Origin: a virus
Virus record (IMG/VR): IMGVR_UViG_3300020048_000026
Coordinates: 90,854 to 154,853 of that record
Direction: 5' to 3' (one strand)
DNA length: 64,000 bases
Part shown: piece after piece, positions 19,738 to 58,008 of the stretch
Position numbering within the stretch: the first letter of the stretch is position 1
Layout of the letters: each line of letters starts with the position of its first letter
Program-made: the position numbers and the translations under genes
Notes under the pieces: generated by a model
What the model was told of the DNA's origin: nothing
The model's input: only the letters and a program-made list of their open reading frames with translations
Database searches by the model: none

Positions 19738-20889
19738 ATGAAATATCTATCTTATTTTAAAGAGAACGTTGATCAAGAGAATTTTAAAGATGATGTTGAA
19801 ACAGTTTTTGAGAGTGATGAATGGTTAGTAATTAGACCAAAATCATATGAATCTTTGTGTTTTTATGGTAAAGATACCGAATGGAGACTTGCTGATCAAG
19901 CACATGAATATTTATTTCATCCGGAGGATACTTATATAAATATCAATAAAGATGATGATAATTTAATATTATTTGATTTTTATAATTGTGATTTTTGTGA
20001 TAAAGAAGAAGATACTGTGTATTTGAAAGATTTTTTTGATATAAATAATGAGTTGTATTATTTTTATGGTGAGTTAATACAAAATAGTAATGTAGTTAAA
20101 GAAGGAGATAATTATTGGGTTGTTATTGATGATTATGTTTTTTTTACAGATTATTTTAAATTAGACAGAAATACTAGAGATGATTTTATAAAAAGAATGT
20201 TAAGTGGTGAAGATAGAGAAATTTTTAGTTATGATAGTAGAGATTTTGATATTGATGAGTTTTATGGAAAATTAAATGATAAAAATTTATTATTATTAAA
20301 AACAGTACTAAGATTAGAAAGAAATTTTGATGTTGATTATGATTATGATGTAAATGGAGTAAAAAATTATGATGATATTACATCAATAGTTAAGGAATAT
20401 GACTTAGAAGAATTAAAAAAGTTTTTAAGACATTGTGTGTGTGAGGCTCGTGAAGATGCAGATTCTTGTAAAGCCTATGAAGAAATAACAGATGAAATTT
20501 ATGATTTTTTTAATCTTGAAATTGGTTCGGCTAAATGGCAAAAGTATAAGAATTCAAAATATGATAAATTATGGATAAGATTTAAGACTAAAGCCGCAGC
20601 TTATTATTCAAAGTTTTTATTTAATGGTTATGATGATAGTTATTCTGATGAAAAAATAAACTATTATTCAAAAGATTATTATGGAGATTTAAAAGATTTG
20701 GAAATTTCTTTTAATGATGCTATTGAAAATAAGATTTTTGATTTTGACTCTGCTAATGTAAATTATAGTGATATAAAAGAATTCTTAAGTATTTGGAATG
20801 AATCAAAAGAAAAAAATCCATCAGCAACAGAAGAAGAAATTGAGAAAGATGTTGATTTTTATTTTAATGCAAAAAAATATAATTTATAA
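19738..20889 (+). CDS. Acidic hypothetical protein with N-terminal CTS-like and C-terminal KYNL tags
   Basis: MKYLSYFKEN...NAKKYNL; WLVIRPKSYESLCFYG..TEW motif; late motif at 19723-19731. Confidence 0.75.
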   Translation: MKYLSYFKENVDQENFKDDVETVFESDEWLVIRPKSYESLCFYGKDTEWRLADQAHEYLFHPEDTYININKDDDNLILFDFYNCDFCDKEEDTVYLKDFFDINNELYYFYGELIQNSNVVKEGDNYWVVIDDYVFFTDYFKLDRNTRDDFIKRMLSGEDREIFSYDSRDFDIDEFYGKLNDKNLLLLKTVLRLERNFDVDYDYDVNGVKNYDDITSIVKEYDLEELKKFLRHCVCEAREDADSCKAYEEITDEIYDFFNLEIGSAKWQKYKNSKYDKLWIRFKTKAAAYYSKFLFNGYDDSYSDEKINYYSKDYYGDLKDLEISFNDAIENKIFDFDSANVNYSDIKEFLSIWNESKEKNPSATEEEIEKDVDFYFNAKKYNL

Positions 20890-21398
20890 TGATAATAAAT
20901 TTTGATGAATTTATTAAATTAAATGAAACTGAATCTACACCATCTATTATTTTGGATTTATTTACTGATGATAGATTAAAATCTTATAATATTAATGATG
21001 ATTTTTCTTTAAGTATTGAAAGAACAAAAGGCTCATTTAAAGTTATAATTAAAGATAAAAACTTAAATAATAAGGTTATTGGTAGAGTTTATGTACAAGA
21101 GATTAAACCTAATGGCAAAAATGGATATAAAGCAGAATTGAGAAGGTTATATGTTAATGATGAGTATAGAGGTAATAAGTTTGGTGAAATATTGTTAAGA
21201 ACTGCTCTAGATTCATTTCCTGAAATTGATTTATATGGTTACCCAAGTCCAAATAGAAATAAAGATATGAATGATGATAATCTTGAAGATTATAGAAAGA
21301 GATTAATAAAATTTTATGACAGACTAGGACTAAAGAAAGTGTCTGATAAAAGTAATAAAGTTGAGAGAATTTCTTTAAAAAAATCTTTATCTTTATAA
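20889..21398 (+). CDS. GNAT acetyltransferase with CTS-like N-terminus
   Basis: RLYVNDEYRGNKFG motif A, LIKFYDRLGL; MIINFDEFIKLNE. Confidence 0.85.
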   Translation: MIINFDEFIKLNETESTPSIILDLFTDDRLKSYNINDDFSLSIERTKGSFKVIIKDKNLNNKVIGRVYVQEIKPNGKNGYKAELRRLYVNDEYRGNKFGEILLRTALDSFPEIDLYGYPSPNRNKDMNDDNLEDYRKRLIKFYDRLGLKKVSDKSNKVERISLKKSLSL

Positions 21399-21411
21399 AA
21401 AAATATAATTT

Positions 21412-22149
21412 ATGATAGAGAGATTTGAAAAATTTATAACTCCTAAAAATGAAGATAAATATCCAGCAGTAAGACACTTATCATTATATGAGTCAGCAAT
21501 ATCTATTATGGAGAATGGTTATATAATGAGTAGAAATGAAATGAAGAAAAATATTAATGATATAGATATTAATGTAATAAAGAATAAAGCGATAAATTCT
21601 AAGGATAGATGGTGGGATGAAAGGAAAGCACTTGAACATAAAAAATTTGGTACCGAAGATGTAATATATTGCACTCCTGATTGGTTTAATGATTCAGGTT
21701 ATGAAACAGGTCATGGTGCGGTTATGTTTTATTTTAAACCTTCTATTTTTGAAGATTTTAAGGTAACATTGACTATAACAGATAGTTTAATGGAAAGTAA
21801 TTTGAAAATTTATAATAGTAAAGAAATTCAAAAAATCTATTCAAATATAATAAAAGAAAATTATAATGTTGATTATGAAAAAGAAGCAAAGAAAATATTA
21901 GAAAATTTGAATAATAAAAATGAGGGTAGAATGTTCAATACAAGTAAAGGGTTGATGTTTATTGAAGGTAATAGATTTTATAATAAATATTCAGAGATTC
22001 AATTACATATAAATAGAATTCCAATTAAATATATACAGGAAATTAGGTTAACAGATAATTTTTTAGATGTAAAAGATTCTGATATTAAAAATAAAGAAAA
22101 ATTGATAAAACTATCAACACAAAAAAATATTAAAATTTATGATATATAG
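21412..22149 (+). CDS. Putative ADP-ribosyltransferase (DarT-like / H-Y-E clade) with CTS-like N-terminus
   Basis: VRHLS...ISIMENGYIMSRNE, DVIYCTP, YSEIQL..RIP..YI. Confidence 0.5.
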   Translation: MIERFEKFITPKNEDKYPAVRHLSLYESAISIMENGYIMSRNEMKKNINDIDINVIKNKAINSKDRWWDERKALEHKKFGTEDVIYCTPDWFNDSGYETGHGAVMFYFKPSIFEDFKVTLTITDSLMESNLKIYNSKEIQKIYSNIIKENYNVDYEKEAKKILENLNNKNEGRMFNTSKGLMFIEGNRFYNKYSEIQLHINRIPIKYIQEIRLTDNFLDVKDSDIKNKEKLIKLSTQKNIKIYDI

Positions 22150-23005
22150 ATTTAAAATTTTTGAGAAAATGAGCGTTGATAGTTTAACAGTTCAGATTTC
22201 AGAGAAAATTTGGAAAAAATTCTTAGAGAATAAAAATGAATCTTCTTTTAGTGTTGATATATCAGAGTTTAACATTAATTTAAGAAGCTCACGTACAAAT
22301 ATTGTACCTATAAATTATATTAATGTAAATGTAAAGAAAAATCAAGCTGAATCTGATTGTTCTAATTTCGCATATACTTACAAGGACGGTTTCTTTACAG
22401 TTATTTCAATTGGGTTGTTGGATAGAGAGTCAGACAAATATAAAACATATGGTAAAATAAAACAAGATATTATTCATGAAATTCAACATATGGTTGATGA
22501 ATCAAGAAAAATAAAATTAAATGATAAATCTCGTTTTTTTGATCCAGCACAATCAAGAGCATTATTTCGTACTGATGTTTTTGGTGCATTTAGTAATGAT
22601 AAAGGTAATTTATATAATGCTAAAAAAACAATTGATAGTTTTTTAACTTATAATGGCTTAACAGAACAATATAAAAAATTATTAATTTATCTTTATTTGG
22701 CTACAGATGATGAAATGGCTTCGCGTTTACATGAACTCTATATACAATCAAAAGAACCTGGATATTTAGATTATTTAAAACAAAAAAAAAGACCAATAAA
22801 GTATTATAAAGATATGATACAAATGAAACTTGATTATAATCTTTTTTCTAAGAAGGAAAAAGATAAAATCTCAGATTTATTCCAAGTTAGTAATATTAAG
22901 AAAGTTGAGAAATATATAAATAATCAAGGTCAAAAATTTATAAACAAAGCTTATAAATTAGCTTCTTATGAAGAACCAGATAATACCGTTAAAAATAGTT
23001 ATTAA
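22139..23005 (+). CDS. Putative zinc metallopeptidase with CTS-like N-terminus
   Basis: IIHEIQHMVD HExxH plus downstream DEMASRL; MIYRFKIFEK. Confidence 0.6.
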   Translation: MIYRFKIFEKMSVDSLTVQISEKIWKKFLENKNESSFSVDISEFNINLRSSRTNIVPINYINVNVKKNQAESDCSNFAYTYKDGFFTVISIGLLDRESDKYKTYGKIKQDIIHEIQHMVDESRKIKLNDKSRFFDPAQSRALFRTDVFGAFSNDKGNLYNAKKTIDSFLTYNGLTEQYKKLLIYLYLATDDEMASRLHELYIQSKEPGYLDYLKQKKRPIKYYKDMIQMKLDYNLFSKKEKDKISDLFQVSNIKKVEKYINNQGQKFINKAYKLASYEEPDNTVKNSY

Positions 23006-23627
23006 GTACAACAAAATCACCTTTTTTAATAAAATCAATTAATCTTATCAAATGATTATTAGAAAAAAGATGTTTATTATCTTCACTATATTCTATTAAT
23101 TTCCAAGCATCTTCTATTAAACTGAGTCTTACATTGTGTAATCCTTCACCAGAAAATGAATTTAGAAAATTTAGAAAATTTGAACGAAATCCATCTCTTT
23201 CTCCATGACCACAACAAGGTCTCATTATTTCTAATACATCAGCATCATAAACAATTATCTTATTTATATCTAAATTTAATTTTTTATTGATTAATGAAGA
23301 TGAATATTTACAAAAATTCAGACCATAACCTTTTTTCTCTAAGTAATTAGAACACAAGTTCATGCTATCGTTTTCCCATAAATCAATACCATTTGCTTGT
23401 CGTCCTGAATCGTGAAATGATACTGCATATCTAATTGCTGAAAAATCAATATCTTTATTGTTCAATTCATTATAATGAAATCTAGCCATAAATTCGGAGA
23501 AGATAATAGATCTTGCTATATGAAGTCTACCATGCACACCAACAACATCAAAAGTGTTTTCGTGTTTCTGATAAATTGGTGATATTTGTGCTGTAAATTC
23601 TCGTATGAAATTATTCCAGTTTTCCAT
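22989..23627 (-). CDS. HD-domain phosphohydrolase
   Basis: VHGRLHIARS...SFHDSGR...YDADVLE. Confidence 0.8.
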   Translation of the reverse strand: MENWNNFIREFTAQISPIYQKHENTFDVVGVHGRLHIARSIIFSEFMARFHYNELNNKDIDFSAIRYAVSFHDSGRQANGIDLWENDSMNLCSNYLEKKGYGLNFCKYSSSLINKKLNLDINKIIVYDADVLEIMRPCCGHGERDGFRSNFLNFLNSFSGEGLHNVRLSLIEDAWKLIEYSEDNKHLFSNNHLIRLIDFIKKGDFVVLNNYF

Positions 23628-23657
23628 TTTATTGTTATGAAAAAAAAGTATGAAAGT

Positions 23658-27617: not shown

Positions 27618-27668
27618 AAAATTAGATTTTGTTTTTTATATATATAAAAAAACAAAATACATATTTTA

Positions 27669-28058
27669 ATGCTAAAAACTTATACTAGTTTTATTACAAA
27701 GATTAATGAAGGTTCAGATAGTTCTCCAACTATTATTTATTGGGATCATCAACTTGTTGATGTTCTGGATAAAGAGTGGACAAACATAACAGTTAAGATT
27801 CTCACACATTCTTCTAATATTTATACAATAGGGTTTAAAGCTGGAAATGAAAAATATGATTATTATGGTGTTTTGTTTGATAGTAGTAGTAATAGTTTAT
27901 TAGTACAAGATACTCATAATGTAGATTCTAAGTTTCAAAAAAAGTTAAATATAGAATTTTGGAAAAATGCTGTAGAATACTCTAAAAATATGGATTTTGA
28001 TCCTAAATTTTTAGGTGATGTTTCTCATATAAGAGATGCTGAAAGATATAATATGTAA
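27669..28058 (+). CDS. Hypothetical protein with CTS-like N-terminus and KYNL-variant C-terminus
   Basis: MLKTYTSFITKINE...DAERYNM. Confidence 0.7.
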   Translation: MLKTYTSFITKINEGSDSSPTIIYWDHQLVDVLDKEWTNITVKILTHSSNIYTIGFKAGNEKYDYYGVLFDSSSNSLLVQDTHNVDSKFQKKLNIEFWKNAVEYSKNMDFDPKFLGDVSHIRDAERYNM

Positions 28059-41708: not shown

Positions 41709-41776
41709 AAAATTTATATAGAATCAAAATAAATAAGTTTAAATTTTAATATATAGATAAAATAAATGTGATTATT

Positions 41777-42121
41777 ATGAAGCATTTGAAAAAATTTGAA
41801 GGTGTTATGCTACCTTTTAAAAATGAGTATGATATTCAAAAAATTGAAGATGATTTAAGAAAAAAATTTTCAAGTGAAGAGGAATTTGAAGAATGGTGTA
41901 TGGAGGCGGATGGTAAAAGTAGATTTGAAAAAGTTGATTTATCAATTGTAGCATCCTATGATGTACCATTATTATTGGATTTACTTCCAAATGATGATAA
42001 ATTAACAGGAATATTAATTGATTTATTAACAGAAATTAATTTTGATGATTATTATGAGCCCAGAGATGGTGATAGAGAATCTTGGGATGCAAAAAACGCA
42101 GCAAAAAAATATAATTTATAA
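41777..42121 (+). CDS. CTS-like/KYNL-tagged hypothetical protein
   Basis: MKHLKKFEG...NAAKKYNL; late motif at 41747-41755. Confidence 0.75.
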   Translation: MKHLKKFEGVMLPFKNEYDIQKIEDDLRKKFSSEEEFEEWCMEADGKSRFEKVDLSIVASYDVPLLLDLLPNDDKLTGILIDLLTEINFDDYYEPRDGDRESWDAKNAAKKYNL

Positions 42122-42123
42122 TT

Positions 42124-42738
42124 ATGGCAGTAGATACAAGGAATGAAGATTTGGTAAAAAAGTACTTTGATTTGGTACAAGAAGAAATTAAAAAGTTAAT
42201 TTCACAAGATAAAGAGATAAAACCTGATCAAATTGAAACTTTTAATAATGAGATTTTTAATCAATCCGATGAAATTAGGAATCAAATCAAAGTATTTGTA
42301 GATAAGGCTACTATGAATAATTTAGATATAAATAAAGTTGCTAAAATTATCTATGATAAATTTAAATTACAAGTAAAGAACAATGTTTTTAATCAAGATG
42401 ATGTGAATGATGTACCAAATCCAATGTTAGGTGAAAGAAAACATGTTAAAACTTTTGAGAATTTTTTATTTGAATTTCAAGATGATGTGAAATTAAAATG
42501 GTCAAAAGAAGATTTTAGTAAATTGATTACACAATTGAAGAATAAAATAGCAGAAGCAAGAAAATTTTTAGGATATTCTAAAACTAATACTATTTTAGAT
42601 ATAGATAAATTATTAAGTGAATTAAAAGAAATTGAATTAACCGAAGCAGAGGAATTGATTGATGAAATTCTCATATTAATTGATATGATTAAAACTTTTA
42701 CTAGTGAAAGAAGAAGAGAAATAAGTAAATTGAATTAA
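42124..42738 (+). CDS. Hypothetical protein with internal CTS-like motif
   Basis: Internal LGERKHVKTFENFLFE. Confidence 0.7.
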   Translation: MAVDTRNEDLVKKYFDLVQEEIKKLISQDKEIKPDQIETFNNEIFNQSDEIRNQIKVFVDKATMNNLDINKVAKIIYDKFKLQVKNNVFNQDDVNDVPNPMLGERKHVKTFENFLFEFQDDVKLKWSKEDFSKLITQLKNKIAEARKFLGYSKTNTILDIDKLLSELKEIELTEAEELIDEILILIDMIKTFTSERRREISKLN

Positions 42739-43184
42739 TGATTACAAAGTTCAAATTATATGAAAATATTGGTGTTTCATGGATTAGTCCAGATATTAGA
42801 AAAATGTTAAATGAATATGGATTAGATGTAGATTTTCACAATATAGATAATTGTGAACTTACTTATGATAGAAAATTTAGTGGAGCACTTAGTAAGAGAA
42901 CTATTGATATAAATTCAACTGATTTGGAGTTTTTTCTTATTTCTTTGGATAAAGCAATAATACATTTTGAAATACCAAAAGAAAAAATAATAGAACTAAA
43001 AGATAGAATATGTGAATATGTTATTAAATTCATTAATACACCAAGAATGGAACCTGATAATCTACAAAAGATATTTAGTAATATGAGTGATGAGTTACTT
43101 AGAAAATTAGAAAATAACCCAAGATTGAGTAAAAACGCAACAGAAGAATTAGTAAAAAGATCAGCAAATAAATATAATTTATGA
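42738..43184 (+). CDS. CTS-like/KYNL-tagged hypothetical protein
   Basis: MITKFKLYEN...SANKYNL. Confidence 0.75.
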   Translation: MITKFKLYENIGVSWISPDIRKMLNEYGLDVDFHNIDNCELTYDRKFSGALSKRTIDINSTDLEFFLISLDKAIIHFEIPKEKIIELKDRICEYVIKFINTPRMEPDNLQKIFSNMSDELLRKLENNPRLSKNATEELVKRSANKYNL

Positions 43185-43185
43185 T

Positions 43186-43596
43186 ATGAAAATTAGTAGA
43201 TTTTATGAGTCAAATTTACCAAGGTGGATAAACACCACAAATAAATGGTCATTTGAAAAAGTTAAAAAATTTTTTAATGATAGAGATAGAATTGTTGAAG
43301 AGAATAAACAATTAGTGTATCTTTTAGAGTTATATTTTTATTATAATCCTGAAGTATTACCATCAGATGAATTTATTGAAGAAGTTAAAAGAGTAAAAGA
43401 GAAATATGATAAAGTAATGATACCATTTGATATTAAAAAAATTAACTTAATAGATAATTCATTAATTATAGAGATGAATTACCAGGATGAAGATAGAGGA
43501 GAGGAATTAGAATTAAAGGATGATGATTTTAAAGATTTTATAGATTTTACACAAAATCCTGAAATTTATTTTGATGTAAAAAAATACAATTTATGA
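43186..43596 (+). CDS. CTS-like/KYNL-tagged hypothetical protein
   Basis: MKISRFYES...DVKKYNL. Confidence 0.75.
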   Translation: MKISRFYESNLPRWINTTNKWSFEKVKKFFNDRDRIVEENKQLVYLLELYFYYNPEVLPSDEFIEEVKRVKEKYDKVMIPFDIKKINLIDNSLIIEMNYQDEDRGEELELKDDDFKDFIDFTQNPEIYFDVKKYNL

Positions 43597-44291
43597 TAAC
43601 AAATTTTAACAAATACAAATTAAATGAAACTTATGCTTTATCTGGAAAGCATTCATTTTTAACTTTCTTACAGATAATTTCTAATCATGATTTTCATTTC
43701 ATTGTAAATGATCAATTTACAAAACTTTATAATTATCATTTCTTCTTTTCAACAGAAACTATAAAAGATGTAGATGAGTTTGTTGATATTTTTAAGTACA
43801 AACATTCATTAGCTTCAACATATGAAATTTTGTTAAAAATTAGAACAAATAAATTAGCATTCTTTTTTGGTGTAAAAGAGAACTCATTGTTGAGATATGG
43901 ATTTTTAGATTTAGATACACAAAGAAGTTATGTTGTTGGTGAATTTCAAGTTACTGGACAATATTTCAACTCAATTTCAAAATATAAAGCATTACAGTTT
44001 ATAAACAAGGTCATACAAACAGTAAATGTTAAAAATTTATCTACAATGGCTAAGGTTAAGAGAGATTTTGAAAATTTTTATAAAAGTAAAAAAAGTAAAA
44101 AAATTAGAATTGTTGATAATAAGATAATTAACTATTTTGAAAGAAGTGAATTTACAGATGATGATTTCAAATTAAATAGACCTTTTAGAGTTTTAGATCA
44201 ATGGGTAACAAAAAAATCATGGAAAGATAGAGTTGAATATAGTGTTGATGATACAACAGACCCAATTCAATTTATCGTTATAGTAAAATGA
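43593..44291 (+). CDS. Hypothetical protein with CTS-like N-terminus
   Basis: MITNFNKYKLNE. Confidence 0.7.
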   Translation: MITNFNKYKLNETYALSGKHSFLTFLQIISNHDFHFIVNDQFTKLYNYHFFFSTETIKDVDEFVDIFKYKHSLASTYEILLKIRTNKLAFFFGVKENSLLRYGFLDLDTQRSYVVGEFQVTGQYFNSISKYKALQFINKVIQTVNVKNLSTMAKVKRDFENFYKSKKSKKIRIVDNKIINYFERSEFTDDDFKLNRPFRVLDQWVTKKSWKDRVEYSVDDTTDPIQFIVIVK

Positions 44292-44662
44292 GATATTTAA
44301 AATATTTTGAAAAAGTTATTGGATTAGAAAAAGGTGACTATGTATATTGTCAAGTTGATAGTAAGAGTTATTTAGCAGATGAGATAAATAATTTTCTTAT
44401 TAAAAATATTGGTCAATTTTCATATAAAACTGATAATTCATTTCATAAATTGCCAGCAGATTATATAGTTTACTTTAACGATATACCAAAAACTTATTCC
44501 GAATTAAATTTACCGAGAGGATTTAAAATGTCAATAGGTTCAAATTGGAAAACTTTCTATAGAGTAATTAAAGAAGACGATATAAAATTTTATTCAAAAA
44601 ATAAAGAAGAAGTATTAGATTATATGAAGTTTATTGATGATGTAAATAAATATAATTTATGA
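44288..44662 (+). CDS. CTS-like/KYNL-tagged hypothetical protein
   Basis: MRYLKYFEK...DVNKYNL. Confidence 0.75.
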   Translation: MRYLKYFEKVIGLEKGDYVYCQVDSKSYLADEINNFLIKNIGQFSYKTDNSFHKLPADYIVYFNDIPKTYSELNLPRGFKMSIGSNWKTFYRVIKEDDIKFYSKNKEEVLDYMKFIDDVNKYNL

Positions 44663-44970
44663 AATATTTAAAATATTTTGAAAATATAGTAAATGGTTGG
44701 ATTATTAGAACCGATGAACCTTACTTTGAAATAAGTTTAAGAAAAATTGGTATACCTGAGCAAATAATAAAAGATTGGCTTGAAAATAAAAACATACAAA
44801 ACTATAAAAAATTAGTAGTGTATGTAGGAGTTAATGGTAAATATTCACATTTTCCTGTGGATTTACTAAAAGATTTTAGGGAAATTATGAAATATGAGAT
44901 AATTGAACCAAATGAAGATGATTTTGAAGAATGGAGAATTAGAAAAGATGCAAATAAATATAATTTATGA
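44659..44970 (+). CDS. CTS-like/KYNL-tagged hypothetical protein
   Basis: MKYLKYFEN...DANKYNL. Confidence 0.75.
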   Translation: MKYLKYFENIVNGWIIRTDEPYFEISLRKIGIPEQIIKDWLENKNIQNYKKLVVYVGVNGKYSHFPVDLLKDFREIMKYEIIEPNEDDFEEWRIRKDANKYNL

Positions 44971-45590
44971 AATATATTAAATATTTTGAAAATAATTCAA
45001 TAGTTCAACAACCTTTTTATTTAAGGGGTGATATGCTTTATATTTCTGATGAACTTGCTAAATCTATCACTAAATTCAAATTAACAAAAAAAGACAAAAA
45101 TATATCGTGGGCTGAGCATGTTATAAAGAACAATTATGAATTTTATAAAAATGCTGAATTAGGTCATAAAAGTAATGTAAATTATGCTTTAACAGATGAT
45201 CTTTGGATTAGATATGATAATAATTCATTTAGAATGAATATTATTATTTATAAGGGTGTTACTTATGATAATGAGGCTGGTCATTTTAAATATTTCATAG
45301 GTGGAAATTCAGGTGATTATAGTATGCATGGAAAAAATATGAAGAGAGCAACAAGAGATTGCAATCTTAATTTTATGATTCATTTTTATCCAATAGTAGG
45401 TCACATAAAAGATTTTTATAAAAAATTAAAAAATGAAAGAAATTCAAACTTACAAAAACAACCATTCTTTGATATAATTAAGGAAGCAATAAAAAAAGAC
45501 AACTCTATTGTACAATACGGTGTACCAGATGAATTAATAAATGATAATGATGTGGGACACTTTATTGGAGGTTATAAATATAATTTATAA
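44967..45590 (+). CDS. CTS-like/KYNL-tagged hypothetical protein
   Basis: MKYIKYFEN...GGYKYNL. Confidence 0.75.
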   Translation: MKYIKYFENNSIVQQPFYLRGDMLYISDELAKSITKFKLTKKDKNISWAEHVIKNNYEFYKNAELGHKSNVNYALTDDLWIRYDNNSFRMNIIIYKGVTYDNEAGHFKYFIGGNSGDYSMHGKNMKRATRDCNLNFMIHFYPIVGHIKDFYKKLKNERNSNLQKQPFFDIIKEAIKKDNSIVQYGVPDELINDNDVGHFIGGYKYNL

Positions 45591-48600: not shown

Positions 48601-48909
48601 AGTATTGAAAATTATGTATATGCAGAAAAAGATGGTGTTAAATTAATAGGTGCTGGTACACAATTTTCAGTACCTATTAAAATTTTCTTTATGTTGGCTA
48701 ATAGTTCAGCTGAGTATATTACATTTGCTTCAAATTTATCTACATCTCCTTATGTTATTAAGAAAATTAGAGTCTTTATGGAGCCAGAAAATTTAAATAG
48801 AACATTTGAATTTGAAGTTATATTCAAAATTTATAGAAATAGAACATATACCGTTAGAACAAATAATAATACTACTGTTTCTGCTGGAACACAACAATCA
48901 CAAACTTAA
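45679..48909 (+). CDS. Large probable virion structural protein (tail/baseplate)
   Basis: 1076 aa, late motif at 45646-45654, central coiled coil, FN3-like segment, S/T-rich C-terminus. Confidence 0.65.
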   Translation: MQNQKSTFVSLSEQLALLEKNSIEIMTKLNDVVTNRNSVVSVNLMNSDGTTSSYQFPTVGQLKNEIDIANRNIRKLAGLADSTAYVSDGTTMRKVYVDDLNREPEPIDSLNKISRFMSINNSFFESLSNPLLAVHIDLTDKIDRKVNKILSRRYIIKFQKDDNGNYTTDGQTSKKDFETKFLNQNNIFVDDLTTWYNNPKNYGLFRSNEPYDDQVFDLDYDELQFYGIFDVIGVDNDTVNKKLWYVLNSMTYYDYSGNTLSLKQNDELIINKKDSSTKWKIKETSTAKSNYRVVLERIEGLDPVPVISQALKIYSPELSNKSIKVSIGYDEYNVIFIKPINTDANIVSSTWSYGTCFYSNDLVLDTNDTVSITKYYSETVFDYGSILKDMIVKNIPSKYGKTPNKPILDETNFKVLQINKHLTETANSNKIKELHAQKTSVKSQLEQLGDAITEKTKEVSTKQFKSGSEKQASQNQLNTLIAQQNSQTKLYTSIVNRISSENNGTTSVESPKFRVRGFWSFPEPVMTGYEGYQQKQEVVQFKIQYRYSSKGGSEPTTEGFKVNMTQTFYKTATSTGDISDQTKAYLNPSVSTQVATVNAYYSNWNQYLSDARKRTYNKALDVWTWEIEDVSDANTPNINQLDIPIQQNEKVEIRIKSISEVGWPNAPLESDWSDVLIMDFPDDLSQVGGENSLILREAQNEEIYAQLESKFNSKGLTTHLQQSYYINDLYVAHTDVNLGTSFKDSSGNIIMLNAYLKSLSDRISSLEELLLRAKGELVVKLIKGAQQVTIANGAAVNVSLRCEDYAEQSGTTRTYYNKVYSTDDYVLQFENVAAGSQLGLFSYRPYVPTVPGDNRFYNPTYAKGSLATYVNSEGNLNVQSDNQFIWFSDTSGIQQIYFTGNTSLSYGQSLYSKSWNIGLTGDTFSTNGSYATPINILTDVVWTGVTYPTSPDPAAANYQDPNTAFPITIHPYIDSIENYVYAEKDGVKLIGAGTQFSVPIKIFFMLANSSAEYITFASNLSTSPYVIKKIRVFMEPENLNRTFEFEVIFKIYRNRTYTVRTNNNTTVSAGTQQSQT

Positions 48910-48922
48910 AATAATATAATTA

Positions 48923-51900
48923 ATGATAAATAAAAGTTTTCAATTACTAAGAGCAAATCCAGCATTGACGACAAATGTTAAACTGGTTGTTGATACAGAT
49001 TACAAATTATATTTAGAATCTTTTGATAGTAATTCACAATTATCTGATCAAAAATATAAACATTTCAGAATAAGTAAAAATCACTTATATGAAGAAATTG
49101 TAACTAGATTTTATGATGGTTTATTATCACAATTGGCATTTGATGTAAAATATGATTCTGATGATACAACTGTTTTTACAACATATGATCATCAATTTGA
49201 TGATACATATTGGTCTGGTGCTAAGTCTATTGAAGATAAATGGTTCAAACATGATTATGAATATTTAGCACCATTGTTTATAAAAAAAGGTAGTATACCG
49301 GAAGGATTTGTTGTTTTACGTGTAGATGAGGCTACTCCTTATGAGGAAAATGGAAATGAATTCAATGTTACTAAGTTAACTAAAGATAATTTTTATACTC
49401 AAATTGTGGATAAATGGAAGTGTGTAAATTTCTATGATATGAGATATCAAAGTGATTTTGGGTTCTTCTTATCTAAAAATTTTATAGAAAATACTAGATT
49501 TCCAGAAAATGCGTTTGAATTAAATTTTACGAAATATGAATATTCTAAGTTTTATGGTATAGACTATGATAATGGTGTATATGCAACAAAATCTAAATTT
49601 TTACAAGATATTTTGTATTATGAACAACCTCATTTTAGATTAGAAAAAGAAATTTTGAATACATTTAGAGATAATAGTTTGATTTTTCCACATATTTTAA
49701 ATATAAAATTTATATTTAGTGATGTTCCCGCAACACCTGATAATGTTAAAAATTATTCATTAAATAGATATTATGGATTCTATATAGATAAATTAGATTT
49801 TATAACAAATTTAACATCATATGTAACACCTGAATTAAAACCTGGTCTAACTTTGAAAAATAATATTTTTATGGATGGAACAGTTGAAAGTATAGAATCA
49901 CCATTTGTAGAAGGGTTTGAACCAGATAAGACGTATTGGCTTCATTATAATGATGATTTTTATCAAGTTATCAAAGTTTTAGAAAGTGGTAAATATGTCT
50001 ATAAGGTGATTAGTGATTTTGATATGAGTGGTATAACATTAACTAATTTTAATGATAGAACATGTTTTATAAATTATCAAGAGGGTTATAACTATAGATG
50101 TAAAACAATTCAAAATCCATCAGGATATACAAATTATATATCTGGGTTCACTTCTAATTTTCAGATTGATCCTTATTATGATAATGGAAATATTGAAACT
50201 ATGTATGGTGACCTTTATTTAATTGATATAGACGGTAGTTTTCATGTTTTGAAAAAAAGAGGTTTAGATTATTTTGTTCAATCTGATTATGCTATTAATT
50301 CATATCCAACATTTTTAGAATATTGGAAAGGTGGAAAAAGCAGTAAGTATTATATATCTAAGCCAATATATAAATATGGTGAAAAACCAATGGTTTATCC
50401 TGTTTATAGATTGAAATTTAGTGATATAAAAGATTTTGATTTTAATAGAGTTAATACACATTTTTCAGATTTTGAATATGAAAAAGATACATATCATTCA
50501 ACACAAGAACATAAATTATACGCTACTGATTATACTGATAAATCCGTACTAAATAAGAACTTTATGGTACATGCGAGAGGTGAAGATGGTCAATACCAAA
50601 TAATGAATGTTTCATCTGAGTATATTGCTGATGATGAATTATATGAAGTTGAATTTAATGATTTAAAAGATATATGGAGAAAAAATCAATCTGTTGTTAA
50701 ATGGGGGTTTGCAGGCTCAAATTCAAATTGTGATTATCCATATAAATTAAATAATTCTATTGATATTGGTGATATTTATAATAGAACTTGTAATATTAAA
50801 ATGAGTTTTCCGAAAGAAATTGAAAAAAATTTAGATTATTTTTATAGAATTGGAAATTTTTTATCAGGTAACACTTTAGGTACAAGTGGTTTAACACTTA
50901 GATATTTGAATCAAACTACTAATATTGAAACTGATCTTATGGAAAATTTCAGCAAGAAATTTAATTTAGATTTATATTTAAATTCTGAAGTTGATTATTT
51001 TGATTATTTTTTCAAGAATAAATCTTATTTTACGATAGATGATATAAATTATATAAAACCAACCAATAAATATTCAACATTTCAATCAGGTGATAAATAT
51101 ACACCATCAACAACTTTATTTAAAGGTTTAAATATTAATATTTTACCTGTTGATAGTATATCTAGAGATACTTATGGTAAAATAACAGATATTATTTATA
51201 ATAACAATAAAAATTTTAATGGATATAAATTTGCTATTATTTTAAATGATGTTTATGATTATTTTGATGCAAATACTCATGTTGGATTAAATGAAAATGG
51301 TTTAAGTGGTAATACTGTAATTGATAATTCTGTAAATGCAATTCATGTATTTTTAAATGATAAATTTAAAAATGTACTAATTGTTATTAACATTAGAATA
51401 CCAATGCAACAAAAATTGATAAATTTGAATAATGTTCCTGTTTTTGGTGAGAAATTTGGACTCTATACAACAAGAAGATTAGATGTTAAAAAATTTACAT
51501 ATCCTTTATCTGCAAGTACCGTTAAACAATATGATTCTGATCTAATTAGTGCAGCTAATTTTATTGATGCTTTTGATGATATGAATACATTATCAGAATT
51601 TGAATCTGGTATAACCTTCTATTATGTTAATTCTACTGGTGAATTTGGTTCAACTGGACCTATTAATATTTTTAATTCTGGTAATACAATGGTATCAGTA
51701 ACTAATTGGAACAAGGTTGATCCACCTTTTATTCTTACTATAAATGATCCTCAAATACTAGAAACTAAACCACAATCTTATATTAAAGAAGCAATAAAAG
51801 GACCATCAACAAATATTTATGATAAATATAAAACTTATTATACTGGTGATGAAAGACAAAACATAAATGTTACTGAACCTTTGGCAAGAACAATGAAATT

Positions 51901-52372
51901 AAATATACAGCAAAATACTAATAATACTGTATATGCATCAAACAATGTTGCTGTAAATAATCAGATTTTTAGATATAATGGTGTATATGAACCTATATTT
52001 GTAGATGTGCCTCTATTTAATAATACTTACATATACTTATCAGGTGTAACAAATAAATACTGGGAATCAAATTATAAGTTTGATACTTCGTATGAAAATT
52101 TTGGTGTTATTGAAGAACTGATATTCTCTAAGGTTAACCCAAAAATATCACCACTTAAATTAAAAAACACAGATACTGATAAATCAATCTATCCAATGGT
52201 TGATGAGTTTGGTTATCAATTTAGTTATAGATTTATTTTTAATTCTTCTTGGGATAAAGATTTTTATATTTTAACTAGTCCTGATCAAAATGTAAATAAA
52301 AAAACATTTGCGACTCTTGCAAATTATCAAAATATTATTGCAGCAGCACAAACAATAAATAGTCAATCCTAA
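48923..52372 (+). CDS. Large probable virion structural protein
   Basis: 1149 aa, co-transcribed with 45679; many SGxT motifs. Confidence 0.6.
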   Translation: MINKSFQLLRANPALTTNVKLVVDTDYKLYLESFDSNSQLSDQKYKHFRISKNHLYEEIVTRFYDGLLSQLAFDVKYDSDDTTVFTTYDHQFDDTYWSGAKSIEDKWFKHDYEYLAPLFIKKGSIPEGFVVLRVDEATPYEENGNEFNVTKLTKDNFYTQIVDKWKCVNFYDMRYQSDFGFFLSKNFIENTRFPENAFELNFTKYEYSKFYGIDYDNGVYATKSKFLQDILYYEQPHFRLEKEILNTFRDNSLIFPHILNIKFIFSDVPATPDNVKNYSLNRYYGFYIDKLDFITNLTSYVTPELKPGLTLKNNIFMDGTVESIESPFVEGFEPDKTYWLHYNDDFYQVIKVLESGKYVYKVISDFDMSGITLTNFNDRTCFINYQEGYNYRCKTIQNPSGYTNYISGFTSNFQIDPYYDNGNIETMYGDLYLIDIDGSFHVLKKRGLDYFVQSDYAINSYPTFLEYWKGGKSSKYYISKPIYKYGEKPMVYPVYRLKFSDIKDFDFNRVNTHFSDFEYEKDTYHSTQEHKLYATDYTDKSVLNKNFMVHARGEDGQYQIMNVSSEYIADDELYEVEFNDLKDIWRKNQSVVKWGFAGSNSNCDYPYKLNNSIDIGDIYNRTCNIKMSFPKEIEKNLDYFYRIGNFLSGNTLGTSGLTLRYLNQTTNIETDLMENFSKKFNLDLYLNSEVDYFDYFFKNKSYFTIDDINYIKPTNKYSTFQSGDKYTPSTTLFKGLNINILPVDSISRDTYGKITDIIYNNNKNFNGYKFAIILNDVYDYFDANTHVGLNENGLSGNTVIDNSVNAIHVFLNDKFKNVLIVINIRIPMQQKLINLNNVPVFGEKFGLYTTRRLDVKKFTYPLSASTVKQYDSDLISAANFIDAFDDMNTLSEFESGITFYYVNSTGEFGSTGPINIFNSGNTMVSVTNWNKVDPPFILTINDPQILETKPQSYIKEAIKGPSTNIYDKYKTYYTGDERQNINVTEPLARTMKLNIQQNTNNTVYASNNVAVNNQIFRYNGVYEPIFVDVPLFNNTYIYLSGVTNKYWESNYKFDTSYENFGVIEELIFSKVNPKISPLKLKNTDTDKSIYPMVDEFGYQFSYRFIFNSSWDKDFYILTSPDQNVNKKTFATLANYQNIIAAAQTINSQS

Positions 52373-53102: not shown

Positions 53103-53150
53103 ACAAATATAGATTTATACGATATATAAATAAAAAATAATGGAATTTTC

Positions 53151-53618: not shown

Positions 53619-53929
53619 TAAACAATGTGTCAGTTGGTTATCCATCATCTATGATTGGTGATATTGATATACAGAAATATCGCATTCGATCTGTTTCTAT
53701 GATTTCAGAAGCAACTTGGACTCCAAGAATTATTATTACACATTTTGATGGTAAAGAATTTTATTATTCATTGTCAAGATTGTATATTGAAGATTTAAGA
53801 GCACAAAAGATAGATGTTACTAATCAAATAATTTGGAATCATATTAAAAAAGAATGTGCTGTCTGGTTAAGAAGAGAGAAATTAGAAAAAATAAATTCAT
53901 TAGAATTTATTGATATACAATTAAGTTAA
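53615..53929 (+). CDS. Hypothetical protein with RKxKL tag
   Basis: WLRREKLEKINSL near C-terminus. Confidence 0.65.
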   Translation: MINNVSVGYPSSMIGDIDIQKYRIRSVSMISEATWTPRIIITHFDGKEFYYSLSRLYIEDLRAQKIDVTNQIIWNHIKKECAVWLRREKLEKINSLEFIDIQLS

Positions 53930-53944
53930 AAACAAATTAAGGTT

Positions 53945-54370: not shown

Positions 54371-54383
54371 AATTAAATCCTGA

Positions 54384-55943: not shown

Positions 55944-56768
55944 ATTATATTTTTGAATATCTTCTCTTTGGTTCCAAATTATTTTACAATAGTTTATTGT
56001 CGTAAACTTTACACCTAAAAATTCTTTATGTCCAGAGACTTTTGCTGCTAATTTAACATTGTCACCTTTTTTAACTTCTTTGTTGGTTCCAATATTATAA
56101 GTCATATATTTGTTACCTTCTTTATCAATTAATTTACATCTACATTGAAATTCATCAATACCTTCAATTTTTTCAACATTATAGATTTCTGCTTCTATTT
56201 CTATTTTATCACCTATTTTACCAATAAATTGGCTTTTACTTTCTTCTAGATTTTTCTTCTTAATTGTATCAAAATAAAGATCATTATAATATTTTAATCT
56301 TTCTGCTCTTTCTGGACTTTTTCCATCATAATTTTTAGTTAACCAAATAATATATTGTGGATCTTCAACAAAAATATCTCCTAATGTTTTACCACGATAT
56401 TTACCAAATGACATTAATTCTGCTTTGGCAGATTTAAACATACCTGCATTAGTACCTGTTCTATCTATCATAACTGGTACTCTACCTGTTGCAATTTTAG
56501 CTTTTTCAACCGCAGTATTAAAATCTGTACTAAGATTTGTTATAAAATTATAAACAGTTTTTACACCTGGTTTAAATCTCCATAATGTATAATAAACTGA
56601 GTATTTTCCAGATGTATCTATATAAAAATACCCAAATTTACTTAAATCCCAACTTGGATCTTTACCTTCTTTTAAATAAATTTCAGCGTCTTGAACTTCT
56701 TTATCAGATGGTTCTTTAAGAGAAGACATTTTGTTTTCGTTGTACTGTGTAAAATTATTTATTTTCAT
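55938..56768 (-). CDS. DUF3820-like plus OB-fold protein with CTS-like and KYNL tags
   Basis: MSFGKYRGKTL.DI...DPQYIIWL; FIGKIGDK...KGDNVKLAAKV OB-like; ends DIQKYNL. Confidence 0.7.
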   Translation of the reverse strand: MKINNFTQYNENKMSSLKEPSDKEVQDAEIYLKEGKDPSWDLSKFGYFYIDTSGKYSVYYTLWRFKPGVKTVYNFITNLSTDFNTAVEKAKIATGRVPVMIDRTGTNAGMFKSAKAELMSFGKYRGKTLGDIFVEDPQYIIWLTKNYDGKSPERAERLKYYNDLYFDTIKKKNLEESKSQFIGKIGDKIEIEAEIYNVEKIEGIDEFQCRCKLIDKEGNKYMTYNIGTNKEVKKGDNVKLAAKVSGHKEFLGVKFTTINYCKIIWNQREDIQKYNL

Positions 56769-57123
56769 AAAATTTAAGACATTTATCTATTTCTTTTTGA
56801 AGTTTTGTTGGTATAAAAGGTTTTTGAACATAAAATAATGCTCCCATATCTTTTATTTTTTTTATAGCTTCATTACCACCAGCGGTTACAATAATAATTG
56901 GTATGTTATATTTTTTTGCTATAATAGAAAAAGTTTCAAAACCATCCATTTGAGGCATAAATATATCTAATAATATTAAATCTGGTGGATCTTGTTTAAT
57001 AAATTTTATAGCATCAATTCCGTTGATTGCAATCTGTGTATAATATCCTAATTTTTGTGCAATTGCCTGTTGTAAAAATGTGCTATCAGCATCATCATCA
57101 ACAATAAGAATTTTATTTTTCAT
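56755..57123 (-). CDS. Stand-alone CheY-like response regulator
   Basis: ILIVDDD, PDLILLDIFMPQMDG, PIIIVTA, GA..YVQKPF. Confidence 0.92.
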   Translation of the reverse strand: MKNKILIVDDDADSTFLQQAIAQKLGYYTQIAINGIDAIKFIKQDPPDLILLDIFMPQMDGFETFSIIAKKYNIPIIIVTAGGNEAIKKIKDMGALFYVQKPFIPTKLQKEIDKCLKFYENK

Positions 57124-57232
57124 TTCAAATATTATTTTATTGTATATATTAATTTTTATATTAAGTTAATTTAAAACAAATATTAAACTTTGTCATATAT
57201 ATGTTATATTATAGAAAAAATAACACTAACAT

Positions 57233-57718
57233 ATGATAATAACAGTAACACCAGAAGACTTAATTCGTAGATGTTTATGGTCTGATTATAAGAGATTTGT
57301 GCTAAAAGATAAATCTGAACAAGAAATACAAACCTTAGTTAAAGATAATAAACCAATTGTGTTAACAGAAGAACATGGATATGCGATAGGATTATTGAAA
57401 ATCATAGAAACTGATAATTTAGTTCATAGATTTACTGTTCATATGAAAGAAATGATAAATATGAAATCTACTATTTTTGATAAAAATGTTTATATGTCTG
57501 TAAAAATTGTTGAAAATGAATTAGAAAGTTTTAAAAAAAGATTTCCTGAATATTGGGTAGCTGATACAGTCTATGAAAAATCAATTAAAGATGTTATAAC
57601 ACACATCACACAACTTCAAGCCTTAATTAAATCATTTGAAATTTTTGAATTTAAGATTAAGGATAAGAAGGTTAGATACTTCCAATCAAAAGATATTAAA
57701 AAAATGGTTGAGAATTAA
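57233..57718 (+). CDS. Hypothetical protein
   Basis: 161 aa; AAAAC-N18-TATATA at 57173-57201. Confidence 0.7.
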   Translation: MIITVTPEDLIRRCLWSDYKRFVLKDKSEQEIQTLVKDNKPIVLTEEHGYAIGLLKIIETDNLVHRFTVHMKEMINMKSTIFDKNVYMSVKIVENELESFKKRFPEYWVADTVYEKSIKDVITHITQLQALIKSFEIFEFKIKDKKVRYFQSKDIKKMVEN

Positions 57719-57720
57719 AA

Positions 57721-58008
57721 TTATAAATTGTATTTTTTAGCATCTATTTTTATTTTTAATTCATCTATATCTTTTGATATATAAAGAATTTCTTCTGGTT
57801 TAAAAACTTGAACGGTTTGAATAGTTTTTCTATCACTTTCATCATCAATTTTAAATCTGACAAAAATATGATTGTTAGCATAATTATAAATTTGACCAAT
57901 GTGTGTTTCTAAAAAATTATTGTAACTATCTGAATACTCACGATTAGATTTTATTAAAACATAATTGTCAATTAGATTTTTATTTTCAAATAATTTAATA
58001 TATTTCAT
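57721..58008 (-). CDS. CTS-like/KYNL-tagged hypothetical protein
   Basis: MKYIKLFEN...DAKKYNL; body resembles 44288 (YV...FL...IGQ). Confidence 0.75.
   Translation of the reverse strand: MKYIKLFENKNLIDNYVLIKSNREYSDSYNNFLETHIGQIYNYANNHIFVRFKIDDESDRKTIQTVQVFKPEEILYISKDIDELKIKIDAKKYNL

What the first reader, a model, noticed from the sequence alone, without database searches (positions are those of the whole stretch)
19738..58008. Two-ended peptide tag system: N-terminal MKYLKxFE-like motif plus C-terminal (A)xKYNL-stop on ten mostly unrelated proteins
Seen: 19738, 41777, 42738, 43186, 44288, 44659, 44967, 55938 and 57721 end in KYNL-stop, and 27669 ends in RYNM-stop. All ten start with a variant of M-K-[YH]-[LI]-K-x-[FY]-E or ..F..[LI]NE, while their bodies are mostly unrelated. 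Tyr is encoded by both TAT and TAC, suggesting protein-level constraint. All lie in units headed by a T(T/A)ATATATA motif. Known: the T4 internal proteins carry a capsid-targeting sequence (MKTYQEFIAE) cleaved after Glu by the prohead protease. Inference: the N-tag packages variable cargo into the head, and KYNL is a second signal I do not recognise (e.g. scaffold or portal docking, or ejection order). Together they would form a modular protein-delivery system.
Basis: partly seen in the sequence, partly recalled or inferred. Interest (0 to 1): 0.9.

Follow-up and report, generated by a model that had tools for sequence, protein, structure and literature searches.

The report
Two-ended peptide tags on megaphage proteins
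In a fragment of an uncultured giant phage, about a fifth of the genes encode unrelated small proteins that share one short peptide at the front and, in most cases, another (K-Y-N-L) at the very end. The front tag resembles the phage T4 signal that loads proteins into the virus head; I found no described counterpart for the end tag.

Summary
All ten listed genes end in KYNL-stop (one in RYNM-stop) and start with the MKYIKxFE-type peptide. Genome-wide (155 kb, about 22% of a megaphage), 25 genes carry the C-tag and about 45 the N-tag. KYNL occurs 21 times at a C-terminus and once internally.

- **Spread:** the same two tags mark 144 further distinct proteins in 31 IMG/VR contigs from 17 samples.
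- **Level of selection:** synonymous sites vary freely and substitutions are conservative (K/R, Y/F, L/I/M), so selection acts on the protein, not the DNA.
- **Cargo:** the bodies are unrelated (ankyrin, LRR, an SH3-like barrel, mostly unknown).
- **Structure:** in two AlphaFold models the N-tag is disordered, and the C-tag is the capped end of a confident C-terminal helix.
- **Expression:** tagged genes sit behind the promoter motif that heads the portal, protease and tail-fibre genes. They avoid the host-type (Bacteroidota-like) promoter.
- **Head machinery:** the phage has a T4-type head, and its prohead protease is fused to CTS-like scaffold repeats.

Most likely this is a T4-style capsid-cargo system with an added, undescribed C-terminal signal. 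Packaging is inferred, not shown. The scan had already noted this system on an overlapping window of the same genome (e1-5790476).

The parts
19738..20889 (+). Two-tag gene, 383 aa (MKYLSYFKE ... AKKYNL)
   Evidence: promoter motif at 19723-19731
20889..21415 (+). N-tagged gene (..F..[LI]NE class), 169 aa as called to 21398. A KYNL-stop lies in the -1 frame behind an A7 run, ending at 21415.
21412..22149 (+). N-tag-only gene, 245 aa (MIERFEKF...; ends ..IYDI)
22139..23005 (+). N-tag-only gene, 288 aa (MIYRFKIFE...)
27669..28058 (+). Two-tag gene, 129 aa; variant tags (..F..INE at the front, RYNM at the end)
   Evidence: promoter motif at 27636-27644
41747..41755 (+). T[TA]ATATATA promoter-like motif heading the array 41777-45590
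41777..42121 (+). Two-tag gene, 114 aa
42124..42738 (+). Untagged gene inside the array, 204 aa, with an internal N-tag-like octapeptide at residues 106-113 (19.8 bits)
42738..43184 (+). Two-tag gene, 148 aa (MIT class)
43186..43596 (+). Two-tag gene, 136 aa (Tyr coded TAC)
43593..44291 (+). N-tag-only gene, 232 aa
44288..44662 (+). Two-tag gene, 124 aa. Member of the SH3-like 'GDYV' family (25 members, 23 C-tagged). AlphaFold pLDDT 83.6.
44659..44970 (+). Two-tag gene, 103 aa; the word-index search of 5.8 billion proteins returned only this protein itself
44967..45590 (+). Two-tag gene, 207 aa
55938..56768 (-). Two-tag gene, 276 aa, with an ExoX-like_C motif in the body
   Evidence: unit headed by the motif at 57143-57151
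57721..58008 (-). Two-tag gene, 95 aa from the MKYIKLFE start
   Evidence: unit headed by the motif at 60487-60495

Best explanation
A lineage of uncultured, AT-rich, T4-like megaphages marks a fast-turning-over set of small, soluble proteins with two portable peptide tags. Their host is probably a Bacteroidota member. Many of the proteins are binder-type (ankyrin, LRR, SH3-like).

Shown:
- Both tags are under protein-level selection.
- The two tags co-occur on unrelated folds.
- The N-tag (M-K-[YH]-[IL]-K-x-[FY]-E, or MITxFKx[FY]E) is a disordered peptide followed by a linker of variable length.
- The C-tag (A-x-K-[YF]-N-[LIM]-COOH) is the capped end of a C-terminal amphipathic helix and must be the true C-terminus.
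- Tagged genes share the promoter motif of the virion genes.

Inferred:
- The N-tag works like the T4 capsid-targeting sequence. It would dock the protein onto the scaffold core of the prohead, which here is a protease-scaffold fusion with 14-residue CTS-like repeats.
- The Glu-specific prohead protease may then remove the N-tag.
- The cargo would be delivered with the DNA into the next host as anti-defence or takeover factors.
- The C-tag is a second, lineage-specific address signal acting in the same pathway: extra docking or retention in the head, or order of exit. Its receptor is unknown.
For: - **Tags are real and linked:**
- **Protein-level constraint:** at the C-tag, TAC is 18% and AAC 26%, against 11% and 13% background. 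The A-ending last codon is explained by the ATGA stop/start overlap (96/97 with a TGA stop). The only substitutions are K/R, Y/F and L/I/M. N-tag codons are near background.
- **Unrelated cargo:**. A Pfam census of 147 C-tagged proteins gives 9 ANK, 4 LRR, 2 ExoX-like_C and 1 DMP19-like; the rest have no family.
- **Structure:** residues 1-5 and 1-9 have pLDDT below 50 in two unrelated families, while the C-terminal helices score 89-97.
- **T4-type head:** portal, Peptidase_S80/S77 protease, Gp23 capsid protein and terminase are present. The protease carries about 13 repeats of Y-S-E-Y-[IL]-A-E-N-L-D, close to the T4 CTS, and the capsid protein has an L-N-E site.
- **Promoters:** T[TA]ATATATA heads the portal, protease, tail-fibre and adaptor genes and 24/25 C-tagged genes. 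In related loci only 1/66 tagged operon heads carry the host-type TAnnTTTG, against 36/204 of the others, p = 3e-4.
- **Cassette turnover:** a relative (L030) has 5 tagged genes where this genome has 1, between the same conserved genes.
- **T4 precedents:** CTS residues 4 and 7 do the targeting (PMC9026906). Diverse internal proteins share only the CTS (PMC3012670). Alt is trimmed at both ends (PMC5694885).
Against: - There is no virion proteome; the phage is uncultured.
- In the main N-tag class the residue three before the Glu is usually K or T, not the I/L seen in the scaffold repeats and capsid protein. Only the MIT class (17/17) and about 20% of the main class fit [LI]-x-E.
- An N-tag profile does not score the scaffold repeats highly (best 4.6 bits).
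- C-tagged proteins are mildly acidic (median pI 5.9), unlike the basic T4 internal proteins.
- The promoter motif also heads some non-structural genes (an endonuclease; SbcCD-like genes), so 'late' is not proven.
- The C-terminal helix is predicted to pack on the body, so it is not a free tail.
- The C-tag does not resemble the protease-scaffold C-terminus beyond K-hydrophobic-N (rank 19 of 187).
- A related 243-kb genome rated complete has the C-tag on only one paralogue family, so the C-tag is not needed wherever the N-tag is used.
Confidence: 0.4

Rival explanations
1. Cytoplasmic hub-docking adaptors. Each protein joins a variable target-binding body (ankyrin, LRR, SH3-like) to constant termini. 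The termini plug into one common phage or host machine, such as an unfoldase/protease or another hub. This would resemble SspB docking to ClpX through a C-terminal peptide, or poxvirus ankyrin proteins using a C-terminal PRANC/F-box. No packaging would be involved.
For: The recognisable bodies are mostly protein-protein interaction modules. The strict need for a free C-terminus (21 terminal against 1 internal) is typical of peptide-binding domains that read a carboxylate. Y-N-L fits a hydrophobic-x-hydrophobic C-terminal ligand. The proteins are soluble and mildly acidic.
Against: No PDZ or S41 tail-specific protease domain was found on this fragment, though only about 22% of the genome is available. 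The promoter class is shared with virion genes and the host-type promoter is avoided. The N-tag resembles the T4 CTS in a phage with a T4-type head.
Confidence: 0.25
2. Generic end-caps with no shared partner. The N-peptide would be a favourable start for near-leaderless or re-initiated translation. The C-motif would be a helix-capping box (small hydrophobic at -6, Asn at -2, Leu at -1) that stabilises a terminal helix. Both would spread among cassettes by recombination because they work.
For: Tagged operon heads have the promoter motif only 4-9 nt before the ATG in 22/32 cases, against 6/53 for other genes. Many junctions are ATGA overlaps. The A/V/I at -6, N at -2 and L at -1 fit a Schellman-type cap at the end of a confident helix (the capping rule is from my own knowledge).
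Against: Untagged genes with the same short spacing lack the N-tag. Near-invariant Phe7-Glu8, Lys(-4) and Tyr(-3) are not needed for translation or for capping. The profile scores are bimodal (tagged 10-33 bits, best untagged -3), which points to one specific recognised epitope.
Confidence: 0.12
3. DNA- or RNA-level cassette boundary. The conserved junction (KYNL codons, overlapping stop/start, MKY codons) would be a recombination linker or a translational-coupling signal, with the peptides as by-products.
For: The genes form tandem arrays with ATGA overlaps. TGA stops are enriched among tagged genes (11/23 against 46/212). The number of cassettes differs between relatives at fixed sites.
Against: Synonymous sites in the tags vary at or above background, and substitutions are conservative in amino-acid space. 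The C-tag is kept on genes followed by no gene or by a convergent gene (for example 45590, 55938 and 57721). The tags also occur on solitary genes.
Confidence: 0.05
4. One ancient paralogous family whose middle has diverged beyond recognition while the ends stayed conserved.
For: Some bodies form families: 25 SH3-like and 10 ankyrin proteins.
Against: The tags sit on clearly different folds (ankyrin repeats, LRR, SH3-like barrel). Lengths run from 40 to 383 aa. Ankyrin and LRR domains are ubiquitous families that normally lack these ends.
Confidence: 0.05

Closest known systems
Phage T4 capsid-targeting sequence (CTS, MKTYQEFIAE) on internal proteins IPI, IPII and IPIII
   Same: Both are N-terminal peptides of about 10 residues shared by otherwise unrelated proteins. 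Both have hydrophobic or aromatic residues near positions 4 and 7 and end in Glu. Both phages have a Gp23-type capsid and a Glu-specific prohead protease. The cargo loci are hypervariable (PMC3012670, PMC9026906; sequence as in PMC8442874).
   Different: The consensus differs (MKY[IL]Kx[FY]E). About 45 tagged genes lie on 22% of a genome, against a handful in T4. The P3 residue usually does not fit [LI]-x-E. The cargo is acidic rather than basic. Most cargo also carries a C-terminal tag. Packaging has not been shown.
T4 Alt, an ejected ADP-ribosyltransferase trimmed at both ends by gp21
   Same: It is a head-packaged protein with a processed N-terminus (ITE-6) and a C-terminal propeptide (cut at LTE-619) (PMC5694885). 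This is a precedent for two-ended signals.
   Different: Alt's C-terminal propeptide is 63 residues long and is not a shared short motif. Here the C-tag is a 4-6-residue invariant end on more than 160 proteins, with no conserved [LI]-x-E upstream of it.
Encapsulin cargo-loading peptides and scaffolding-protein C-terminal docking helices (P22, 80alpha/CpmB, herpesvirus scaffold); comparison from my own knowledge
   Same: A short C-terminal peptide or helix on unrelated cargo, or on a scaffold, docks to the inside of an HK97-fold shell.
   Different: There is no sequence similarity. Here the helix is predicted to pack on the cargo rather than hang on a flexible linker. This phage's own protease-scaffold C-terminus does not match the C-tag profile. 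No binding has been shown.
Adaptor and effector families with constant C-terminal docking signals (SspB XB peptide, poxvirus ankyrin-PRANC, Dot/Icm E-block signals); comparison from my own knowledge
   Same: A variable binder body is joined to a constant C-terminal signal. The signal has an acidic stretch 10-14 residues from the end and a hydrophobic residue near -3.
   Different: Those systems belong to cells or eukaryotic viruses and have known receptors. No receptor is known here, and an N-terminal tag is also present.

Membership tests
T4-type CTS-tagged capsid cargo | The same ~10-residue N-terminal peptide on otherwise unrelated proteins | tested here: met
   About 45 genes in the contig carry it. 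118/144 C-tagged proteins in relatives have it, against 40/330 of the others. The bodies are unrelated by blastp.
T4-type CTS-tagged capsid cargo | Hydrophobic or aromatic residues near positions 4 and 7, the targeting determinants in T4 (PMC9026906) | tested here: met
   Of 144 proteins, position 3 is Y or H in 98, position 4 is I or L in 112, and position 7 is F or Y in 113. This is a sequence-level match only.
T4-type CTS-tagged capsid cargo | The tag ends at a Glu inside the prohead-protease site ([LI]-x-E in T4) | tested here: inconclusive
   Position 8 is Glu in 98/144. [LI] at P3 occurs in 17/17 of the MIT class but only 23/116 of the main class. This phage's own scaffold repeats and capsid protein show [IL]-A-E and L-N-E.
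T4-type CTS-tagged capsid cargo | T4-type head machinery: Gp23-fold capsid protein, Glu-specific serine prohead protease, scaffold core | tested here: met
   PF07068 Gp23, E = 7e-25. PF20034 Peptidase_S80, 28.1 bits (cut-off 23.4). PF03420 S77, 22.4 bits (below its cut-off). There are 14-residue scaffold-like repeats, and the portal and terminase are present.
T4-type CTS-tagged capsid cargo | Expressed late, together with the head genes | tested here: inconclusive
   The promoter motif is shared with the portal, protease, tail-fibre and adaptor genes, and the host-type promoter is avoided. The motif also heads some non-structural genes, and no transcript data exist.
T4-type CTS-tagged capsid cargo | Protein physically present in virions with the tag removed | not testable with these tools
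   The phage is uncultured and no proteome is available.
Alt-like C-terminal propeptide | A conserved protease site upstream of the C-terminal segment | tested here: inconclusive
   Positions -14 to -11 are acid-rich and -12 is hydrophobic in 121/165, but no fixed [LI]-x-E is present.
Encapsulin-type or scaffold-type C-terminal shell-docking peptide | Short conserved C-terminal peptide on unrelated cargo | tested here: met
   K-[YF]-N-[LIM] at the end of 165 proteins. Profile scores are bimodal: 10-33 bits against at most -3.
Encapsulin-type or scaffold-type C-terminal shell-docking peptide | Peptide presented on a flexible linker | tested here: not met
   The C-terminal helix is predicted with pLDDT 89-97. 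Only the last 3 residues are coil.
Encapsulin-type or scaffold-type C-terminal shell-docking peptide | Same motif at the C-terminus of the phage's own scaffold | tested here: not met
   The protease-scaffold ends in a conserved ..K-L-N-S in 18 of 25 relatives. It ranks only 19th of 187 untagged proteins against the C-tag profile.
PDZ / tail-specific-protease C-terminal recognition | A PDZ or S41 reader encoded by the phage | tested here: not met
   No PF13180 or PF03572 match in the 155-kb fragment. The fragment is about 22% of the genome, so absence is not established.

The most novel reading that the evidence does not exclude
The strictly C-terminal K-[YF]-N-[LIM] end is a new, portable address signal of tailed phages. 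It would be a second key that works with a CTS-like N-terminal key, for example by docking to the capsid interior or portal, or by setting exit order through the tail. A megaphage could then load and deliver dozens of interchangeable binder proteins, and its injected proteome could be read directly from sequence.
Probability: 0.25. Interest if true: 0.85.

Novelty: new variant of a known kind. Interest (0 to 1): 0.7.

Why it matters
If the tags are packaging signals, the full set of proteins a megaphage injects with its DNA could be listed from sequence alone. That set would be some 45 on this fragment and perhaps over 100 per genome. It would expand the T4 internal-protein idea from a handful of proteins to a large, fast-evolving arsenal of ankyrin, LRR and SH3-like binders, which are natural candidates for anti-defence factors.

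The C-terminal tag would be a new short signal. It is only four to six residues long, so it is directly testable with reporter fusions, and it could be useful for loading foreign proteins into capsids.

Even if packaging is wrong, a two-ended tag on more than 160 unrelated proteins implies an undiscovered reader for each end.

Tried and rejected
**Searches that found nothing**
- DNA and protein searches of GenBank phages with the tagged array and with the SH3-like member: no match.
- Search of 5.8 billion proteins with the gene at 44659-44970: only itself.
- Pfam on the ten window proteins: nothing except an ExoX-like_C motif.
- PDB sequence search of the large neighbouring genes: nothing.
- Foldseek of the SH3-like model: only weak small-barrel hits, E >= 0.19.
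- ESM Atlas for the 383-aa protein: no usable hit.
- Literature: no relevant use of 'KYNL', and no paper linking capsid targeting to megaphages.
- PDZ or S41 reader on the fragment: none.

**Ideas tested and rejected**
- 'The C-tag mimics the scaffold C-terminus': the conserved K-L-N-S end looked suggestive but ranks 19th of 187 against the tag profile.
- 'The N-tag equals the scaffold repeat': the best repeat scores 4.6 bits.
- 'The N and C ends clasp each other': the N-tag is disordered in both models.
- A DNA-level junction signal: rejected on codon evidence.

**Other negative results**
- The 735-kb relative LR756501 (topoisomerase 54% identical) has no KYNL-stop pattern.
- The 9-mer promoter motif is not over-represented genome-wide (79 observed against about 75 in mononucleotide shuffles). 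Only its position before start codons is informative.

Full report
**Where the window lies.** The window is bases 90,854-154,853 of a single 154,853-bp IMG/VR virus contig with 26.6% G+C. CheckV rates the contig about 22% complete, which implies a megaphage of roughly 700 kb. The contig carries these virion and replication genes:
- a portal, a 790-aa head maturation protease, a Gp23-type major capsid protein, a tail fibre, a baseplate wedge protein, a head-tail adaptor and a large terminase;
- T4-like replication genes: topoisomerase II, helicases and an SbcC-like protein.

The nearest GenBank relative by topoisomerase is the 735-kb uncultured phage LR756501, at 54% identity.

- The DNA pattern for KYNL-stop occurs 10 times in the window against 0.08 expected from dinucleotide shuffles.
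- Genome-wide, 22 ORFs end in KYNL and 25 in [YF]-N-[LIM]. Among 212 called genes, KYNL is terminal 21 times and internal once in 48,216 residues.
- 21 of the 25 C-tagged genes also match a strict N-tag pattern, against 18 of 187 others (p = 1e-14). By eye the remaining four carry variants.
- About 20 further genes carry only the N-tag.
- With the termini trimmed, no pair of 47 tagged proteins reaches blastp E < 0.01.

**The system is widespread in uncultured phages.** I scanned IMG/VR for the 20-nt junction (KYNL codons, an overlapping TGA/ATG, then MKY codons). The scan gave 51 loci. Of these, 36 loci, from 31 contigs and 17 samples with G+C 21-29%, hold 162 genes (144 distinct) ending in [KR]-[YF]-N-[LIM]. 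One 13.8-kb locus (L052) has 20 such genes among 36 called. In these loci 118 of 144 C-tagged proteins have the N-tag, against 40 of 330 others (p = 4e-50).

The N-tag is the broader feature:
- Some related contigs have N-tagged genes without C-tags.
- A 243-kb genome rated complete has about 20 clearly N-tagged genes (34 match the loose pattern), but only four C-tagged genes, all from one paralogue family.
- LR756501 has no KYNL-stop pattern at all.

**Selection acts on the protein, not the DNA.** In 144 distinct C-tags:
- Tyr is TAC in 18% (background 11%) and Asn is AAC in 26% (background 13%), so synonymous sites are not frozen.
- The only replacements seen are K to R, Y to F and L to I or M.
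- The last codon ends in A in 96 of 97 genes with a TGA stop. The ATGA stop/start overlap explains this; with TAA stops the bias is mild.

N-tag codons sit near background, and position 4 uses six different Ile/Leu codons. The C-tag is also kept where no gene follows. A recombination-linker or translational-coupling reading is therefore not the main explanation.

**Anatomy of the tags.**
- *N-tag consensus:* M-K-[YH]-[IL]-K-x-[FY]-E, usually followed by N, S, E or T and then a hydrophobic residue. A second form is M-I-T-x-F-K-[IL]-[FY]-E and a third is ..F..[LI]-N-E.
- *C-tag consensus:* about 3 bits of information at each of the last four positions, A/S/T/V/I at -6, K/N at -5, and an acidic amphipathic stretch at -14 to -10.
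- *C-tag discreteness:* a 20-residue profile separates tagged proteins (10-33 bits) from every untagged protein (at most -3 bits), so the tag is a discrete feature.

I modelled two unrelated families with AlphaFold: an SH3-like barrel (pLDDT 83.6) and ankyrin repeats (pLDDT 89.9).
- In both, the N-tag is the only disordered part (residues 1-5 and 1-9 below pLDDT 50).
- In both, the protein ends in a confident helix followed by three coil residues, Y-N-[LI].
- In the SH3-like family the N-tag is joined to the domain by a linker of variable length.

**What the cargo is.** Of 147 C-tagged proteins, 9 are ankyrin-repeat proteins, 4 are LRR proteins, 2 have an ExoX-like_C motif and 1 matches the DMP19-like family (named for a DNA-mimic protein; from my own knowledge). 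The rest have no Pfam family. The largest body family, with 25 members including window gene 44288-44662, is a small barrel with only weak SH3/KOW-like structural matches. C-tagged proteins are short (median 114 aa), soluble and mildly acidic (median pI 5.9).

Tagged genes sit in variable islands. Between the same two conserved genes, this contig has one tagged gene and the relative L030 has five.

**Expression class.** There are two promoter-like classes.
- *Host-type:* T-rich, about 19 nt, then TAnnTTTG, the Bacteroidota sigma-A pattern (consensus from my own knowledge). It heads about a dozen untagged small genes and the tRNA region.
- *Phage-type:* T[TA]ATATATA. It heads the portal, protease-capsid operon, tail-fibre and adaptor genes. 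By operon inheritance it also heads 24 of 25 C-tagged and 20 of 22 N-only genes.

In related loci, 1 of 66 tagged operon heads has TAnnTTTG against 36 of 204 others (p = 3e-4). Tagged heads place the phage motif 13-18 nt before the ATG in 22 of 32 cases, against 6 of 53 for other genes (p = 1e-7). This suggests near-leaderless mRNAs.

There are two caveats. The 9-mer is not enriched genome-wide in this AT-rich DNA. It also precedes some non-structural genes. 'Late' is therefore an inference.

**Link to T4 head assembly.** The protease matches Peptidase_S80 above its cut-off and S77 just below. Both families cut after Glu (PMC10052503, PMC9026906). After the protease domain come about 13 tandem 14-residue repeats, Y-S-E-Y-[IL]-A-E-N-L-D-x-x-I-x. 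These closely resemble the T4 CTS MKTYQEFIAE and supply [IL]-A-E sites. The capsid protein keeps the T4-like K-W-K-P-x-L-E and has an L-N-E site.

In T4, CTS residues 4 and 7 do the targeting and residues 8 and 10 govern processing (PMC9026906). Diverse internal proteins share only the CTS (PMC3012670). Alt is trimmed at both ends (PMC5694885).

The N-tag here shares the aromatic/aliphatic pattern and the terminal Glu. Only the MIT class (17/17) and a fifth of the main class fit [LI]-x-E, and the N-tag profile scores the scaffold repeats weakly. Docking is plausible; cleavage is open.

**The C-tag's partner is unknown.**
- The protease-scaffold ends in a conserved helix plus K-L-N-S in 18 of 25 relatives, but it ranks only 19th of 187 against the C-tag profile. 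I do not claim mimicry.
- No PDZ or S41 domain is on the fragment.
- The A(-6)/N(-2)/L(-1) pattern fits a helix-capping box. That may explain part of the conservation, but not the invariant Lys and Tyr.

**Verdict.** The finding is real and robust, and I found no publication describing it. The best reading is a T4-style cargo-tagging system, greatly expanded, with an added C-terminal signal that has no described counterpart (confidence about 0.4). A cytoplasmic hub-docking adaptor family is the main rival (0.25). An overlapping window of this genome was already reported by this scan with the same reading (e1-5790476), and N-terminal tags of this kind were reported on several other huge phages.

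Noticed in passing
L002:639-3011 (contig 20639-23011, outside the window): The prohead protease (S80/S77-like) is fused to about 13 tandem 14-residue repeats, Y-S-E-Y-[IL]-A-E-N-L-D-x-x-I-x. The repeats closely resemble the T4 capsid-targeting sequence. A Pro/Gln/Ala-rich linker and a conserved C-terminal domain ending in K-L-N-S follow. The whole looks like a protease-scaffold fusion with built-in cleavage sites.
   Followed up: partly
window 21370-21415: The N-tag-only gene 20889-21398 ends just before an out-of-frame KYNL-stop. A -1 shift on the run A-AAA-AAA would read through to ..I-K-K-Y-N-L. This could be a homopolymer assembly error, a decaying C-tag or programmed slippage giving two isoforms.
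   Followed up: partly
window 592, 25090, 31304 and 31547 (+ strand) and 16642 (- strand); more in the contig at 60-71 kb: A second promoter class with the Bacteroidota sigma-A pattern (T-run, about 19 nt, TAnnTTTG; often ..CCGTATCTTTGCA). It heads untagged small genes, the tRNA region and the TPM-domain gene. This suggests a Bacteroidota host and marks the early genes.
   Followed up: partly
window 19723-19740, and contig-wide: Tagged operon heads place the T[TA]ATATATA motif only 4-9 nt before the ATG (22/32, against 6/53 for other genes). Their mRNAs may therefore be leaderless or nearly so. Virion genes keep a spacer of about 20 nt.
   Followed up: partly
window 42124-42738: An untagged 204-aa protein inside the tagged array has an internal, near-perfect N-tag octapeptide at residues 106-113 (19.8 bits; about 0.05 expected by chance in the whole proteome). 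It could be a fused cassette or a long propeptide ahead of the tag.
   Followed up: no
L001:18284-20000 (portal, contig 18284-20059): The portal protein ends in a Gly/Met/Gln/Ala-rich low-complexity tail of about 80 residues.
   Followed up: no
L094-L106 (243-kb IMG/VR genome rated complete): This relative has about 20 N-tagged genes (many beginning MIKNFKIFEQL). Only four are C-tagged, and all four belong to one paralogue family. The C-tag may have started on one family and later spread to other cassettes in the lineage of the window.
   Followed up: partly
window 45679-52372: Two very large adjacent genes (1076 and 1149 aa) lie behind the phage-type promoter, directly after the tagged array. 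They have no Pfam or PDB-sequence match (only phrog_29329, function unknown).
   Followed up: partly
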